In this document: positions 1 to 5,204 of the stretch, in pieces
How the letters are laid out: the number at the start of each line of letters is the position of its first letter
Numbering within the stretch: the first letter of the stretch is position 1
The notes under the pieces: generated by a model
Databases searched by the model: none
Told to the model about the DNA's origin: nothing
What the model saw: the letters and a program-made list of their open reading frames with translations, nothing else
Assembly: GCA_019894975.1 (NCBI GenBank)
Contig: JAGXNO010000003.1
Coordinates: forward strand, 32,001-96,000
Reading direction: 5' to 3'
Origin: Promethearchaeota archaeon
GTDB lineage: Archaea; Asgardarchaeota; Lokiarchaeia; Sigyniarchaeales; SOKP01
Length of the DNA stretch: 64,000 bases
Translations under genes and position numbers: made by a program

Positions 1-379
1 TTAACTTACTTACGTAGTTTTCCAGAGCATTTACATTTATAATATTTGAAATTTCTGTATTACAATTACAAATAATAACCCCAACTCGACTTATTTCACT
101 TCCCTTTGAATCTAAATACTCGTCAATATCTTCTCCTGATAAAATCCTTTTATTAATATTTAATATCTTAAGGACTCGCTTTCCTTCTTCTGTAAGAAAA
201 TATGATTTCTTATCTTTATCTATTAAGGATCCAATTTTTTTGAGATGGAAGTTTAACTGACCAGTTGTTTCTAAACCAAGTCTTTCCATTAAATCTGTAT
301 ACGGAAGATAACCCTCATTTTCTAGAAGGAGTAATACCTTTCTTCTAAATGGATGAGATAATATTGAATATATATCCAT
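1..379 (-). CDS. ArsR-like winged-helix regulator fused to an HdrA N-terminal Fe-S-like domain (runs off left edge)
   Basis: Not in ORF track. Manual translation from ATG at 379: MDIYSILSHPFRRKVLLLLENEGYLPYTDLMERLGLETTGQLNFHLKKIGSLIDKDKKSYFLTEEGKRVLKIL...SRVGVIICNCNTEISNIINVNALENYVSKL; open to position 1. Confidence 0.8.
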   Translation of the reverse strand, partial: MDIYSILSHPFRRKVLLLLENEGYLPYTDLMERLGLETTGQLNFHLKKIGSLIDKDKKSYFLTEEGKRVLKILNINKRILSGEDIDEYLDSKGSEISRVGVIICNCNTEISNIINVNALENYVSKL

Positions 380-480: not shown

Positions 481-1638
481 TTAATCGTCGTCAATTTCTA
501 AAGCTAAAGGTGGAGATTTCCATGTAATCAATTTATTTTTCATAAAGTTTTCAAATCGTTCCATCTTTAATTGACAGAATTGAGAAATTTTCTCTTTCAT
601 TTTCTCTTTGCTTGTTACCTCCAATCTAAAAGATTTAATTACTCCTGCATTAATTACTTTCCTAATTATATCTATTCCTTTTTTAGTGCGAGTGATTACT
701 GTAGTAAATTTATCCGTAGAACCTAATCCCCCAAATGAGATATCAGCATAAATACTAGTGAAATCGCTACAAGCAAGACAAGCTTGACGCATATAATCAT
801 TTATACTTTCAAAGGGGATATGGATTATTTTTTGAGTGGCTCCTCTGTTTTTCAATTTAATGATTAAATCTTCTTTAATGTTTATTCTTTCTACATTTTC
901 GAATTTCAGATTGAATTCTTTTTCAAACTTCTCAATTCTGAGCTTATCAAAAAAGAAGTTCTCGTAACAAAATAATCCTAAACAAAGCTCAATATTCTCT
1001 GAAGGAATAATACCTAAACTTTGCATGCATCTAATAGTATAAATTTGGCACGGTGTTCCAACCACAGCTAATCTTTTAAATTTGTAATCTCTTAATTGGG
1101 GAAGTGAACTTGTATATGTGTGAAATTTCTGTAATTCATTTAGCTGTGGAGATAAATCTAATTTAAGTCCTGATGCCTCTATTAAATCTTTTTTATTTCT
1201 AGCAATTGTGGCTTCTCTGGAAAAGGCAGTTTTTGTTTTTGCAACGATAGCCCCATCAATTACTTTCTTCTCTAATAAATAGTTTATTATTGAGTTTACT
1301 ACACCTCCATCTGTTCCAATTTTTAAAAAATCTTTATCTGTGGCTTGACATGAATAAATATTGTCGATAAATCCAAAGGGCATGGATGAAAAACTTGTAA
1401 AATTATAAGTTTTCTTGAGATCACCGTCTAAAATATGAGTCTGTGGGCAAAGTAAATAACAAATTCCGCATTCAAGACATTTATCCTCATTTATATATTT
1501 TGGAGGTGAATTAGGATCCTTCATGCTAATTACATCATGTTCAATCGAATTACAAAAACTTACACAACCTCCACATTGTTGGCATATACCAGGTTCGTGA
1601 ACTTCTTTAATTAAATCCTTAAAATTCTTTATCTTCAT
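481..1638 (-). CDS. Coenzyme F420 hydrogenase/dehydrogenase beta subunit (FrhB/FdhB family) with N-terminal ferredoxin
   Basis: CQQCGGC and CLECGICYLLCP; DGGVV, VGTPCQ, GLFC, CLACSDFTSIYADISFGGLGS; paralogue of 61477..62589. Confidence 0.88.
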   Translation of the reverse strand: MKIKNFKDLIKEVHEPGICQQCGGCVSFCNSIEHDVISMKDPNSPPKYINEDKCLECGICYLLCPQTHILDGDLKKTYNFTSFSSMPFGFIDNIYSCQATDKDFLKIGTDGGVVNSIINYLLEKKVIDGAIVAKTKTAFSREATIARNKKDLIEASGLKLDLSPQLNELQKFHTYTSSLPQLRDYKFKRLAVVGTPCQIYTIRCMQSLGIIPSENIELCLGLFCYENFFFDKLRIEKFEKEFNLKFENVERINIKEDLIIKLKNRGATQKIIHIPFESINDYMRQACLACSDFTSIYADISFGGLGSTDKFTTVITRTKKGIDIIRKVINAGVIKSFRLEVTSKEKMKEKISQFCQLKMERFENFMKNKLITWKSPPLALEIDDD

Positions 1639-2054: not shown

Positions 2055-4091
2055 ATGTCTGAAGTGCAGACCAATGTTAGAATAGGAGTGTATATCTGTA
2101 GATGAGGAGTAAATATTGGTGCAAGCATTGATTGCGATATTCTGAGAAATTATGCGGAACTACTCACGGGTGTCATGATTGCTAGAGTAAATGATTTTAC
2201 TTGCAGTGATCCAGGACAAACACTTATTAAGAATGATATTTTAGACTTAGATTTAAATCGGATTGTCGTTGCTGCTTGTACACCAAAAATTCATGAATCC
2301 ACCTACCGAGCAGTATTAATTGAAGCAGGATTAAGTCCATACTATTTTCAAATGGTTAATCTACGCGAGCATTGCTCTTTTATTCACTTAAATGATAAAA
2401 AGAATGCTACTGAAAAAGCTCTAAGATTACTACAAGCAGGAATAAATCGTGCACGGGAATTAGAAATTATCCCTTATAAAAAAATATCGATGGAAAGAGC
2501 TGTTTTAATTATTGGAGCGGGAATTGCGGGGATGAATGCTGCTTTAGATTTAGCAAATCAGGGGATTCCTGTTTATTTAGTCGAAAAAGAAGCCACAATT
2601 GGTGGAAAAATGGCACAATTAGACAGAATTTACCCCACCGATGATTGTGGGATATGAGTACTCGCACCTATTATGGTGAGTGCTTCAAAGCACCCAAATA
2701 TAAAATTATTTACCTATAGTGAAATTATTGAATTTAATGGGATCCCTGGTAATTATAATGTCAAAATACGAAGAAATCCTCGTTATATTAATGAAAAGAA
2801 ATGTACTGGTTGCGGGTTATGTACAATAAAATGCCCAATAAAAGTCCCGAATGAATTTAATAGAGGTATTGGAGAAAGGAGCGCAATTTACATACTTTTT
2901 CCCCAAGCGGTTCCAAAAATTGCTTTAATTGATAGAGATGTCTGTATAGAATGTAAAAATTGTCAAAAAGACTGTCCAGCAGAAGCTATTGAATTTGAAC
3001 AAGAACCTGAGTTTATCGATTTAACAGTTGGAGCAATCATTGTTGCTACTGGATGGGATGAATATCCAATTATGAAATATAACGATTATAAATATGGTAT
3101 TTATCCTAATGTAATTACACAACTAGAGTTAGAACGAATTTTAAGTCCAATTGGACCAACAGGGGGTCATCTTTATAGAATCTCTGATGGTAAAACCCCA
3201 AGAACAGTAGCTATGATTCAATGTGTTGGCTCGAGATCCTTAAAGGGGAACCCTTATTGTTCTGTAGTTTGTTGCAGTGTTGCTCTTAAAAACGCTCAAC
3301 TGCTAAAACAAGAATATCCGGGTATGGATATTGTTATTTTTTATATAGATGTTCGAGCATGGGATAAAGGGAATGAAGAATATTATAGAAAAGCAAGAGA
3401 AGCAGGTATAATGATGGTTCGGGGAAAAGTAGGAGATATACGAGAAGATCCTGAAACAAAAAAGCTAAAGATTCGAGCTTCTTCAACTTTAACTGGTGAA
3501 TTTATTACCTTGAACGCAGATTTAGTCGTTTTATCAACAGGTATGGTCCCTTCTAAAAATACAGCAAAAATCATTGATATTTTAGGATTAAATAAGGATT
3601 CGAATGGTTTTTTAAAAGAGATTCATGGATGCCTCAAACCTCAAGAGACAAATAATATGGGTATTTATATATGTGGATGTGCCGCTGGACCTAAAAATAT
3701 CCCTTATTCCGTATCAACAGCCTTAGCTGCAGCAAGTAAGGTATCAACATTACTTTCTAAAGATACAATAATTCAAGAATTAATTATTGCTGAAATAGAT
3801 GAAAATCTGTGCATGGGTTGTCATAGATGTGAAAAACTCTGTAATTATAAAGCAATCACAGTAAATGGAGAAAATTTTGCGGAAGTAGATGATTTAAAGT
3901 GTAGAGGTTGTGGCGTTTGTGTTTCATCATGTCCCGCTCGAGCAATCGATCTCAAATATTATAGAGAAAAACAATTTGTCGAAGAAATAAAAGGGATTTG
4001 TAGTACTGAAATTGAATTTAAGGAGGAATATTTTGAATCTATTGAAATCGTAATGAAAGAGATTGAAGCATTAGCTCCTCATAAAATTTAA
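2055..4091 (+). CDS. hdrA: Heterodisulfide reductase subunit A (HdrA), putative selenoprotein with two in-frame UGA (Sec) codons
   Basis: ATG 2055 after AAGGTG; frame continuous with ORFs 2175..2657 and 2673..4091 apart from TGA at 2103-2105 (RIGVYICR-U-GVNIG) and 2655-2657 (PTDDCGI-U-VLAP); both align to Cys in HdrA paralogues of this window; GAGIAG FAD motif, ferredoxin motifs. Confidence 0.9.
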
Positions 4092-4092
4092 A

Positions 4093-4161
4093 CCGAAAAA
4101 GAATGATCCTTTCAAAAAAATTATAGTTGAAAGGGAACTAACCCATAGCTAGGGTTTTCGG
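4093..4161 (+). promoter_or_regulatory. Candidate SECIS element in hdrA 3' UTR
   Basis: AUGA (4103-4106), 9-bp stem UCCUUUCAA/UUGAAAGGG, A-rich loop, GA at 4135-4136; directly after stop codon of the UGA-containing gene. Confidence 0.65.
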
Positions 4162-4550
4162 AATAATAATTTATCTTAGATTTAGAGTTTTGATGTATAG
4201 AAAATTTTTTCTAATTTTAGCATTTTGATACTAAGTTTAAATTATGATTAATATATAACTTCCCTTATAGGCAATTTAAGGGATTTCTAATTTCCTATTA
4301 TAAGTGTCATTTAATTATTATATTTTTTTATTTTTTTGTTAAAAAAATTGACAATTTTTTTTTTCATATCATATCTATTAATATGCTAGAAATGTGATTT
4401 TTAACTTTATACTGCCATAAAAGAAAAATTCACTAAAGTTATAGATTGACAATAAAGTTTGTCAAATCCAATAAAATTTTTGTTATCAGATTCTTTAAAT
4501 TCTGAGCTTTTGTTTATTTACTTGGAATAGTTAGATTTATTTATTATGAG

Positions 4551-5204
4551 GTGAGAATTAAGATGGAAGTTTTGGAAATTAAACCTGTTAGGAATAAAGA
4601 AATTAGAGTATATCTGATAAAAATATCTAATAGAAAATCAAAACCTAATGCAAAGGTAAATTTAATTGAGTTTTTAAGTCGTATAAATGTTAATTTTGCC
4701 ACAATTGATTTAGAAAACGAGAATCTAAGAAGTTTTAATAAGTCATCCTTAGCAAAAACATTGGAACAATATAATATTCCTTATTACATAGTAAATATCC
4801 CTGAATATGCGATGGGTTATCTTATGACGGAAATAATAGAAAAAGTAGAACAAGTTGACGAATTAATAGAAGAATTTCTTAGTATGAGCAATAAAGAATC
4901 CATTAAAGGGCTGAATTTAAAATCTTGGATTGATTTTCTCAAAGAAGAGATCGATGAAAAGAAATTATTTTTAGAATTAAAGCTAAGACCAGAATGGGTT
5001 GTTAAGAAAATTCTAGATATAATAAGACCTAAAAATAATAATGAAATCACCTTCGTCCATTTTGCTCAGGATAAGATATTTAATGAAACAATGAAGCTAT
5101 TAAAAGATTTATCTATAGAAGTTAAAGTTTATGAGCAAAAAAAAGAACCTTTTATTGTACATTTAATTACAAATGAGGAGGAATTAGACCAATGGAAGTA
5201 TTAG
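4551..5204 (+). CDS. Hypothetical protein, paralogous to N-terminal domain of the downstream gene (likely start ATG 4563)
   Basis: MEVLEIKPVRNK vs MEVLELKPLKKK; IPYYIVNIPEYA vs IPYKMVDISENA; overlaps next start. Confidence 0.7.
   Translation: MRIKMEVLEIKPVRNKEIRVYLIKISNRKSKPNAKVNLIEFLSRINVNFATIDLENENLRSFNKSSLAKTLEQYNIPYYIVNIPEYAMGYLMTEIIEKVEQVDELIEEFLSMSNKESIKGLNLKSWIDFLKEEIDEKKLFLELKLRPEWVVKKILDIIRPKNNNEITFVHFAQDKIFNETMKLLKDLSIEVKVYEQKKEPFIVHLITNEEELDQWKY

What the first reader, a model, noticed from the sequence alone, without database searches (positions are those of the whole stretch)
4093..4161. Eukaryote-like SECIS candidate within a possible three-way junction, serving two UGAs
Seen: 12 nt after the hdrA stop: AUGA-UCCUUUCAA-AAAAAUUAUAG-UUGAAAGGG-A, i.e. 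AUGA...GA flanking a stem with unpaired apical As. It is followed by hairpin AACCC/GGGUU (4140-4156) and enclosed by CCGAA/UUCGG (4093-4097/4157-4161). Known: AUGA/GA kink-turn core and apical As define eukaryotic SECIS, and Lokiarchaeal SECIS resemble them. The GA/GA register needs a bulged U or a shifted stem, so the fit is imperfect. I see only one such element, implying a single 3' SECIS recodes two UGAs 1.4 and 2.0 kb upstream.
Basis: partly seen in the sequence, partly recalled or inferred. Interest (0 to 1): 0.72.

Follow-up and report, generated by a model that had tools for sequence, protein, structure and literature searches.

The report
Three-armed Lokiarchaeal SECIS behind stand-alone hdrA
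This 69-nt RNA right after the hdrA gene is the already published Loki-type (eukaryote-like) signal that lets the ribosome read two distant UGA codons as selenocysteine, and comparison with about 90 sister elements shows it folds as a conserved three-armed junction that the papers I could read do not describe.

Summary
Observation confirmed. Window 4093-4161 holds AUGA, a 9-pair stem, an 11-nt loop (AAAAA...AG) and AAC, the published lokiSECIS consensus (Mariotti 2016; the AUGA_AA variant is in Huang 2024). It lies 11 nt after a 678-aa hdrA with UGA at codons 17 and 201. It is the only such element near the gene.

The genome has ten such elements, each behind a UGA-bearing gene, plus tRNA-Sec, SepSecS, SelB and selD.

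The three-way junction is real. A lower helix and a second hairpin are kept and covary in 60-90 elements from six genera of one family. An invariant G-C pair closes a kink-turn.

This hdrA lacks the usual vhuD partner and carries the SECIS itself. That arrangement recurs in at least 12 related species.

Verdict: a known kind of element. The added value is a fuller structural model and the stand-alone hdrA. This scan already noted the three-armed fold on other genomes. Function remains inferred: there are no RNA or protein data.

The parts
2055..4091 (+). hdrA, 678 codons, selenocysteine UGA at codon 17 (2103-2105) and codon 201 (2655-2657), stop TAA 4089-4091
   Evidence: Translation with TGA=U is open. 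Pfam gives the HdrA-like FAD/Fer4 architecture. UGA201 is kept in 13/13 orthologues and UGA17 in 4/4 checked.
4093..4098 (+). Lower helix (P1), 5' strand CCGAAA
   Evidence: Pairs with 4156-4161 in the MFE. In the unfitted alignment A3, 4 of 7 pairs show double changes, e.g. C-G to U-A 7 times.
4100..4106 (+). Kink-turn bulged strand: A4100, G4101 (-2b, -1b), loop A4102-A4103-U4104, G4105 (1b), A4106 (2b); contains AUGA 4103-4106
   Evidence: Over 93 elements, G at -1b is paired with C at -1n in 92 and changed to A-U in one. The -2b/-2n position is paired in 74/93. AUGA is invariant.
4107..4135 (+). Main SECIS stem-loop: 9-position stem 4107-4115/4127-4135 (first pair U.G) and 11-nt apical loop AAAAAUUAUAG 4116-4126
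   Evidence: All 9 pairs covary in A4, 94.9% paired. The loop is 11 nt in 87/93, starts AAAAA in 64/93 and ends AG in 85/93. This matches the text of PMC4989117.
4136..4139 (+). Kink-turn non-bulged strand: A4136 (2n), A4137 (1n), C4138 (-1n), U4139 (-2n)
   Evidence: [G/A]AC is invariant in shape: 2n is G in 60 and A in 33; C in 92/93.
4141..4155 (+). Second hairpin (P3): ACCC / AUAGCUA / GGGU
   Evidence: Present in the MFE of 54/63 same-genus elements against 20.5% of flank shuffles, and in 24/29 from five other genera. All 6 pairs covary in A4.
4156..4161 (+). Lower helix (P1), 3' strand UUUCGG, abutting hairpin 2 with no spacer
   Evidence: The gap between hairpin 2 and the lower helix is 0-2 nt in most elements.
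4205..4210 (+). First run of at least 5 T after the stop codon: candidate archaeal termination signal, 44 nt past the element
   Evidence: Read from the sequence. Inference only: no transcript data.
481..1638 (-). Divergently transcribed FrhB/FdhB-like gene (context of the stand-alone hdrA)
   Evidence: Pfam FrhB_FdhB_N and FrhB_FdhB_C. The synteny is kept in 4/4 other species checked.

Best explanation
The element is a functional Lokiarchaeia-type SECIS (lokiSECIS, i.e. Asgard type I eSECIS-like, AUGA_AA variant) in the 3' UTR of a stand-alone hdrA. Once transcribed it folds into a compact three-way junction. Arm 1 is a 6-bp lower helix. Arm 2 is a 2-bp C-stem (G4101-C4138, A4100-U4139), a kink-turn (loop AAU, sheared G.A and A.A, variable U.G) and an 8-9-bp stem capped by an 11-nt A-rich loop. 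Arm 3 is a short G+C-rich hairpin that abuts the lower helix and could stack on it. The folded RNA recruits the Sec-specific elongation factor (aSelB/EFSec, encoded on C44) carrying Sec-tRNASec, directly or through a still unknown kink-turn-binding protein. UGA17 and UGA201, 2.0 and 1.45 kb upstream, are then read as selenocysteine, as in eukaryotic 3'-UTR SECIS action. What is shown: the sequence and structure match, the covariation of all three helices, the strict association with UGA-bearing genes, and the presence of the Sec machinery. What is inferred: actual Sec insertion, the binding partner, the kink-turn geometry, and whether arms 1 and 3 are needed for function.
For: The element matches every stated lokiSECIS feature (PMC4989117; AUGA_AA in PMC11227280). 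Core CM R1 scores it at E = 1.3e-8. R1 finds 10 elements in the genome at E below 0.01. Each lies behind a gene with in-frame UGA: 3 hdrA, 2 vhuD, vhuU, 3 Prx-like, a 161-aa UU protein and a small membrane ORF. tRNA-Sec(TCA), SepSecS at 482 bits, SelB at 248 bits and two selD genes with TGA are present. In the ungapped, unfitted alignment A3, 93.2% of cells are paired against 87.2% in shuffles; the covariation score exceeds all 500 shuffles and partner slides fall to 61% or less. In the CM-fitted A4 (67 sequences), 22/22 pairs have double changes, with 91.8% paired against 64.9%. The unconstrained MFE is a three-way junction in 43/63 elements against 11.6% of 3780 flank shuffles, and in 19/29 core-selected elements from five other genera. 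Junction model R3 hits 25/25 genomes of the family, full length. The -1b/-1n pair is G-C in 92 elements and A-U in one. Orthologous hdrA+SECIS loci exist in at least 12 species and keep both UGAs.
Against: There are no transcript, ribosome or mass-spectrometry data, so Sec insertion is inferred. The single-sequence fold is only z = -2.1. A4 was fitted to the structure, so its counts lean towards it. Many of the compared elements are orthologues and not independent. In the UU161-type elements the lower helix is A+U-rich and poorly defined. Rfam SECIS models do not match, as the 2016 paper also reported for its elements. I could not see the figures or supplements of the two papers, so the third arm may be drawn there.
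Confidence: 0.85

Rival explanations
1. The core hairpin is the SECIS, but the lower helix and second hairpin are not part of the recoding signal. They would be a structural insulator that keeps the K-turn hairpin folded in A+U-rich mRNA, or a 3'-end stability or termination module that merely travels with it.
For: The published models work with the core alone. The sequences of arms 1 and 3 vary freely between gene families. In the hdrA/vhuD AAC-type, the 3' arm of hairpin 2 is followed by U-rich sequence (GGGUUUUCGG), which looks terminator-like on the + strand. Oligo-U tracts follow many elements.
Against: Arms 1 and 3 are kept by compensatory change in all gene families and six genera. The spacing is tight: 0-2 nt between hairpin 2 and the lower helix, and 1-3 nt after the invariant C. 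In most families the sequence after hairpin 2 is not U-rich (AGGGG, UGGGA, AUUUGAU), so it is not a generic terminator. The terminator scan found none on the + strand here.
Confidence: 0.35
2. The register is the reader's alternative: an 8-bp stem with a canonical GA.GA quartet and a bulged U after AUGA.
For: In this one sequence G4135-A4136 could be read as the 3' GA.
Against: The close paralogues C110 and C74 have A at the ninth 3' position paired to U, followed by AA, so no GA is available there. The orthologue L064 has 9 positions followed by GAC. Over 93 elements the frame '9 positions + [G/A]A + C' is constant and the first pair is the variable one, as expected for 3b.3n. AUGA_AA is published for these genes.
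Confidence: 0.07
3. Each UGA is recoded by a local, bacterial-type hairpin just downstream in the coding sequence, and the 3' element is unrelated to recoding.
For: A hairpin starts at the second UGA (2656-2685): -13.5 kcal/mol for the 70-nt window, z = -2.0.
Against: That hairpin is broken without compensation in 12 orthologues. Nothing stable follows the first UGA, z = +1.2. The 3' element tracks UGA genes genome-wide.
Confidence: 0.03
4. The gene is a pseudogene or split gene and the hairpin is a chance fold or plain terminator.
For: Standard gene calling splits hdrA at the UGAs.
Against: Both UGAs and the full frame are kept at 78-91% protein identity in many species. The UGAs sit where other HdrA proteins have Cys (PMC4989117). 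CM E = 1.3e-8.
Confidence: 0.02

Closest known systems
lokiSECIS of Lokiarchaeota HdrA-VhuD, VhuU and PrxL genes (Mariotti et al. 2016, PMC4989117); the same as the Asgard type I eSECIS-like structure (Huang et al. 2024, PMC11227280)
   Same: AUGA before a 9-bp stem. An 11-nt apical loop that starts AAAAA and ends AG. GA or AA after the stem, followed by C. Location a few nt after the stop codon. One element serving several distant UGAs. Multi-Sec HdrA, including the canonical position near codon 200.
   Different: Both papers state that hdrA is always followed by vhuD/frhD, with the SECIS behind the second gene. Here hdrA stands alone with the SECIS 11 nt after its own stop, and this holds in at least 12 related species. 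The main text of neither paper mentions a third helix, a three-way junction or the G-C closing pair. Huang's model is two stems with an internal loop. I could not see the figures or supplements.
Eukaryotic SECIS (form 1), a kink-turn-like 3'-UTR element bound by SBP2
   Same: AUGA...GA-type non-Watson-Crick core. Unpaired adenines in the apical loop. 3'-UTR location. Action at kilobase distance on several UGAs.
   Different: The upper stem is 9 positions, shorter than in eukaryotes (PMC4989117). 2n is A here. The 3' side of the 'internal loop' is a hairpin, giving a three-way junction. No Rfam SECIS model matches. No SBP2 is known in Lokiarchaeota (PMC4989117), and only two L7Ae-family genes are present here.
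k-junction of TPP riboswitches (Wang et al. 2014, PMC4005666)
   Same: A kink-turn combined with a three-way junction. The extra helix sits on the non-bulged strand below the G.A pairs and abuts the other helix, so the two could stack coaxially.
   Different: In the k-junction the third helix is inserted directly opposite the loop. Here a 2-3-bp C-stem (G-C, A-U) separates the kink-turn from the branch point. The resemblance is in secondary structure only: no 3D evidence.
Euryarchaeal SECIS (Methanococcales/Methanopyrus; GAA_A bulge, G+C-rich stems), especially the VhuD variant with AUGA and GAC/AAC
   Same: 3'-UTR location. The VhuD elements carry AUGA and the GAC/AAC trinucleotide (PMC4989117), the same invariant C seen here.
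   Different: No GAA_A bulge and no G+C-rich two-stem hairpin here.

Membership tests
lokiSECIS / Asgard type I eSECIS-like element | AUGA immediately 5' of the main stem | tested here: met
   4103-4106. Invariant in the 8 own-genome elements aligned.
lokiSECIS / Asgard type I eSECIS-like element | 9-bp stem and 11-nt apical loop | tested here: met
   4107-4115/4127-4135 with a U.G first pair; the loop 4116-4126 is 11 nt. The loop is 11 nt in 87/93 relatives.
lokiSECIS / Asgard type I eSECIS-like element | Adenine-rich start of the loop; G at the last loop position, preceded by A | tested here: met
   AAAAAUUAUAG.
lokiSECIS / Asgard type I eSECIS-like element | GA (or AA) directly 3' of the stem | tested here: met
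   AA at 4136-4137. AA is published for VhuU and for Lokiarchaeia hdrA/frhD.
lokiSECIS / Asgard type I eSECIS-like element | Lies just downstream of a gene with in-frame UGA, in a genome with Sec machinery | tested here: met
   11 nt after hdrA. tRNA-Sec, SepSecS, SelB and selD are present.
lokiSECIS / Asgard type I eSECIS-like element | Actually directs Sec insertion | not testable with these tools
   Needs a reporter assay or proteomics.
Eukaryotic SECIS (Rfam SECIS models) | Match to the curated covariance models | tested here: not met
   No Rfam hit at gathering score over the window. No SECIS family at E up to 10 in 3900-4600.
Eukaryotic SECIS (Rfam SECIS models) | GA.GA quartet, two helices around an internal loop | tested here: not met
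   2n is A (an A.A pair) and the 3' side of the loop is a hairpin. It works like a eukaryotic SECIS but is not a member by these criteria.
Euryarchaeal SECIS | GAA_A asymmetric bulge between a G+C-rich 10-bp stem and a 3-bp G-C stem | tested here: not met
   No such arrangement in 4085-4175.
Kink-turn | C-stem, 3-nt loop, tandem sheared G.A/A.G (or A.A), NC stem | tested here: inconclusive
   The sequence pattern fits: G-C at -1b/-1n in 92/93 with one A-U double change, loop R-A-U, G.A plus A.R, variable 3b.3n. The geometry cannot be tested here.
k-junction | Third helix inserted in the non-bulged strand directly opposite the k-turn loop, coaxial with the C helix | tested here: inconclusive
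   The third helix is on the non-bulged strand but 2-3 bp below the loop (definition from PMC4005666). Coaxial stacking is not testable.

The most novel reading that the evidence does not exclude
The working SECIS of this archaeal family is not the published hairpin but a roughly 70-nt three-way junction built on a kink-turn. The third arm is a short G+C-rich hairpin with a near-constant G in its loop. That arm and the lower helix would be required for recruiting SelB or a still unknown SECIS-binding protein. The eukaryotic 'internal loop plus helix I' would then be the collapsed remnant of this junction.
Probability: 0.3. Interest if true: 0.6.

Novelty: new member of a known kind. Interest (0 to 1): 0.42.

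Why it matters
[quoted passage not shown] A well-supported, larger structural model gives concrete targets for mutagenesis, probing and pull-downs. That model has a kink-turn with a G-C-closed C-stem, a three-way junction and a conserved third arm. It also gives a sharper covariance model for finding selenoprotein genes that gene callers split or miss. The stand-alone hdrA with its own SECIS, next to an FrhB-like gene, shows that the 'hdrA always pairs with vhuD' rule has a conserved exception. It hints at an Hdr complex fed by a donor module other than the Mvh hydrogenase.

Tried and rejected
- Rfam at gathering score and at E up to 10 gave no SECIS family; the three weak hits (SpF01, snoR09, idnO) are chance.
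- A local hairpin after UGA201 looked promising (z = -2.0), but it is not conserved in 12 orthologues. Nothing stable follows UGA17.
- The terminator reading of hairpin 2 fails. The scan finds a terminator-like site only on the minus strand, and most families lack a U-tract after the hairpin.
- The 832-aa ORF upstream of the C98 element is Ribophorin-I-like plus Trm112-like. It is probably two genes, not a selenoprotein. That SECIS more likely serves a small ORF in the gap.
- R1 found nothing in 14 genomes of the sister family f2, or in most other families. This says nothing about SECIS forms that the narrow model cannot see.
I redid it from references.
'Lokiarchaeia' rests on the SECIS type, the Ribophorin-I homologue, 31.6% G+C and earlier notes.
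- Supplements of PMC4989117 are not held and figures cannot be seen.
- I did not use the large protein searches or structure prediction. They would not bear on an RNA element.

Full report
**What is there.**
The window is G000:C109:32001-96000, from a 3.93-Mb, 31.6% G+C assembly of 175 contigs. Completeness is 95% and contamination 8.6%. Read with TGA as U, bases 2055-4091 form one open frame of 678 codons, with U17 (2103-2105) and U201 (2655-2657). Pfam shows the HdrA-type FAD and 4Fe-4S architecture. Standard ORF calling splits the gene at the UGAs.

- CCGAAA, 4093-4098
- AAGA, 4099-4102
- AUGA, 4103-4106
- UCCUUUCAA, 4107-4115
- AAAAAUUAUAG, 4116-4126
- UUGAAAGGG, 4127-4135
- AAC, 4136-4138
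- UA, 4139-4140
- ACCC-AUAGCUA-GGGU, 4141-4155
- UUUCGG, 4156-4161

RNAfold returns the three-way junction as both MFE and centroid (-16.1 kcal/mol, z = -2.1). On its own that is only modestly better than shuffles.

**Identity of the core.**
Mariotti et al. 2016 (PMC4989117) define the lokiSECIS by these features:
- AUGA before the stem.
- A 9-bp stem.
- An 11-nt loop whose first five bases prefer A and whose last base is an ultraconserved G, usually preceded by A.
- GA after the stem (AA in VhuU).

Huang et al. 2024 (PMC11227280) report AUGA_AA for hdrA/frhD in Lokiarchaeia. The element meets every point.

The paralogues on C110 and C74 have U-A there, followed by AA. An orthologue (L064) has nine positions followed by GAC. 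Over 93 elements the first 'pair' is the variable one, as expected for the 3b.3n position of a kink-turn.

Rfam has no matching family. The 2016 authors likewise reported that existing SECIS models miss these elements.

**Is it shared by other UGA genes?**
A pattern scan and then a 42-position covariance model of the core (R1) find ten elements in this genome at E below 0.01. This one is the best, at E = 1.3e-8. Each lies at or just after the end of a gene with in-frame UGA:
- This hdrA.
- An hdrA(2U)-vhuD(2U) pair on C110.
- An hdrA(4U)-vhuD pair just beyond the window's end, whose stop is the UGA of AUGA.
- A 1-kb contig (C74) with the C-terminus of another stand-alone-type hdrA.
- vhuU on C93, with its stop also inside AUGA.
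- Three Prx-like genes (UxxU, or U paired with C).
- A 161-aa protein with two adjacent UGAs.
- A small membrane ORF on C98.

The Sec machinery is present. tRNA-Sec(TCA), SepSecS (482 bits) and SelB (248 bits) lie together on C44. Two tandem selD genes, each with one TGA, lie on C108. Only two L7Ae-family genes are found, so there is no obvious SBP2-like extra.

**The three-way junction.**
By eye, nine of the ten own-genome elements show all three of these:
- a helix between the 5' flank and the far 3' flank;
- the core arm;
- a short G+C-rich hairpin starting 1-3 nt after the invariant C.

The exception is the C87 (UU161-type) element, which has the hairpin but only a weak, A+U-rich lower helix.

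I then collected elements selected with the core model only. Those comprised the best hit from most of the 36 same-genus genomes, all hits from five of those genomes, and all hits from five genomes of five other genera. Four lines of evidence follow.

1. In an ungapped MAFFT alignment of 24 hdrA/vhuD-type elements, not fitted to any structure, 93.2% of cells pair against 87.2% in shuffles. Sliding the partners by one to three columns drops pairing to 61% or less. The lower helix has double changes at 4 of 7 pairs (C-G to U-A seven times) and hairpin 2 at 2 of 6.
2. In a CM-fitted alignment of 67 elements from all gene families, all 22 pairs show double changes, with 91.8% paired against 64.9% in shuffles. 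This alignment leans towards the structure.
3. Without any alignment, the unconstrained MFE is a three-way junction in 43 of 63 same-genus elements. It is so in 11.6% of 3780 controls with shuffled flanks. Hairpin 2 appears in 54/63 elements against 20.5% of controls.
4. In the five other genera, 19 of 29 elements give the junction and 24 of 29 give hairpin 2.

A junction model (R3) finds full-length matches in 25 of 25 genomes of the family. Outside the family it finds only two weak hits in about 125 genomes. Kin are not independent, so these are not probabilities, but the compensatory changes across gene families are clear.

**Kink-turn detail.**
Across 93 elements:
- The base two positions before AUGA is G and the base after [G/A]A is C in 92. 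In the remaining element both change, to A and U.
- The next pair out is A-U or U-A in 69 and paired in 74. The one after that is paired in 50. Further out, pairing is at background level.
- The base just before AUGA is A (67) or G (25), with U once.

This reads as a classical kink-turn: a 2-3-bp C-stem closed by G-C, a loop R-A-U, G.A then A.G or A.A, and a variable 3b.3n. In this element the C-stem is G4101-C4138 and A4100-U4139. The linkers at the branch point are 0-1 nt.

The topology recalls the k-junction of TPP riboswitches, where a third helix sits on the non-bulged strand (PMC4005666). Here the branch lies 2-3 bp below the loop, so I do not file it as a k-junction. Geometry and stacking are inferences.

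**Is the junction known?**
The main texts of the 2016 and 2024 papers contain no 'junction' or third helix. Huang's model is two stems with an internal loop. A library search for SECIS plus 'three-way junction' gave nothing relevant. Figures and supplements were not available to me, so I cannot exclude that it is drawn somewhere.

This scan has already noted the three-armed fold on other genomes, as unchecked AI notes. My tests here agree with those notes.

**The stand-alone hdrA.**
Both papers say that hdrA is always followed by vhuD/frhD and that the pair shares one SECIS behind vhuD. Here nothing lies between the hdrA stop and the SECIS. The next ORF starts about 400 nt further on and has no Pfam match.

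The same arrangement recurs with 78-91% identical HdrA in at least 12 other species, with stop and SECIS 11-23 nt apart. UGA201 is kept in 13 of 13. In four species examined in full, UGA17 is kept, as is a divergently transcribed FrhB-like gene.

This SECIS is nearly identical to the one behind vhuD on C110, including the CCGAA/UUCGG helix and the 11-nt distance from the stop. That suggests loss of vhuD or copying of the element. This is inference.

**Rivals.**
- A bacterial-type local element is not supported. The hairpin at UGA201 is not conserved, and nothing stable follows UGA17.
- A plain terminator does not fit. Most families lack a U-tract after hairpin 2, and no + strand terminator-like site is found. 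No run of five or more T lies between the stop and 4161; the first is at 4205-4210.
- The live rival is that arms 1 and 3 only stabilise or insulate the core, rather than taking part in recognition. Only experiments can decide.

**Verdict.**
This is a correct finding of a known kind of element. Its added value is a well-supported three-armed, kink-turn-based model and a conserved exception to the hdrA-vhuD rule. Function remains inferred.

Noticed in passing
G000:C109:96159-96239 (-), about 160-240 nt beyond the window's end (L004/L009); also G000:C93:20510-20595 (-) (L015): In the hdrA(4 Sec)-vhuD pair and in vhuU, the gene's stop codon is the UGA inside the SECIS core AUGA. Mariotti 2016 already described this for VhuU.1.
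   Followed up: partly
G000:C87:80089-80167 (-) and the ORF L002:260-745 (-): A 161-aa ORF with two adjacent in-frame UGAs (...HADUUADIM...) and no Pfam match lies 7 nt before a lokiSECIS. Orthologues at 39-81% identity with the same SECIS exist in other species. Its lower helix is A+U-rich and ill defined, while a 4-bp stem next to the kink-turn (GUUG/CAAU) is possible.
   Followed up: partly
G000:C98:164914-164995 (+); ORF in L003:~4150-4430 (+): This SECIS follows a gap with a small ORF: a hydrophobic N-terminus, a run of D, then CDIF-UGA. The frame continues into the SECIS. The upstream 832-aa 'ORF with one UGA' is Ribophorin-I-like plus Trm112-like and is probably two genes.
   Followed up: partly
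window 2-379 (-), 481-1638 (-); L134-L137: Upstream and divergent from hdrA lies a conserved minus-strand set: an FrhB/FdhB-like gene, then a gene that begins with an HTH-like part. That gene continues beyond the window start into a second, 34%-identical HdrA-like protein with Cys instead of Sec. This suggests an FrhB-linked Hdr module without MvhD.
   Followed up: partly
G000:C44:64016-71569: The Sec machinery is clustered: SepSecS (64016-65314, -), tRNA-Sec(TCA) (65491-65583, -) and SelB/EFSec (70454-71569, +). Two tandem selD genes, each with one TGA, lie on C108:10686-12773.
   Followed up: no
Hairpin 2 loops in 93 elements (e.g. window 4145-4151): The loop of the third arm nearly always carries ...GC... 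or ...G(U/C)G... (UUGCA, AUAGCU, UGUGA), and the G is invariant in the 24 hdrA/vhuD-type elements (column 62). The arm itself is usually (A)CCY/RGG(U), in a genome of 31.6% G+C. It may be a contact site. Untested.
   Followed up: no
G023:C16:26175-26677 (L067): Two SECIS elements lie about 460 nt apart on one strand. One of them is the only element with A...U in place of the invariant G...C closing pair. The upstream genes were not identified by my six reference proteins.
   Followed up: no
G000:C74 (1030-nt contig, L001): This contig holds the C-terminus of a second stand-alone-type hdrA, with about 230 nt of non-coding sequence before a SECIS that is nearly identical to the window's. With 8.6% estimated contamination it may be a strain variant or another population.
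   Followed up: no
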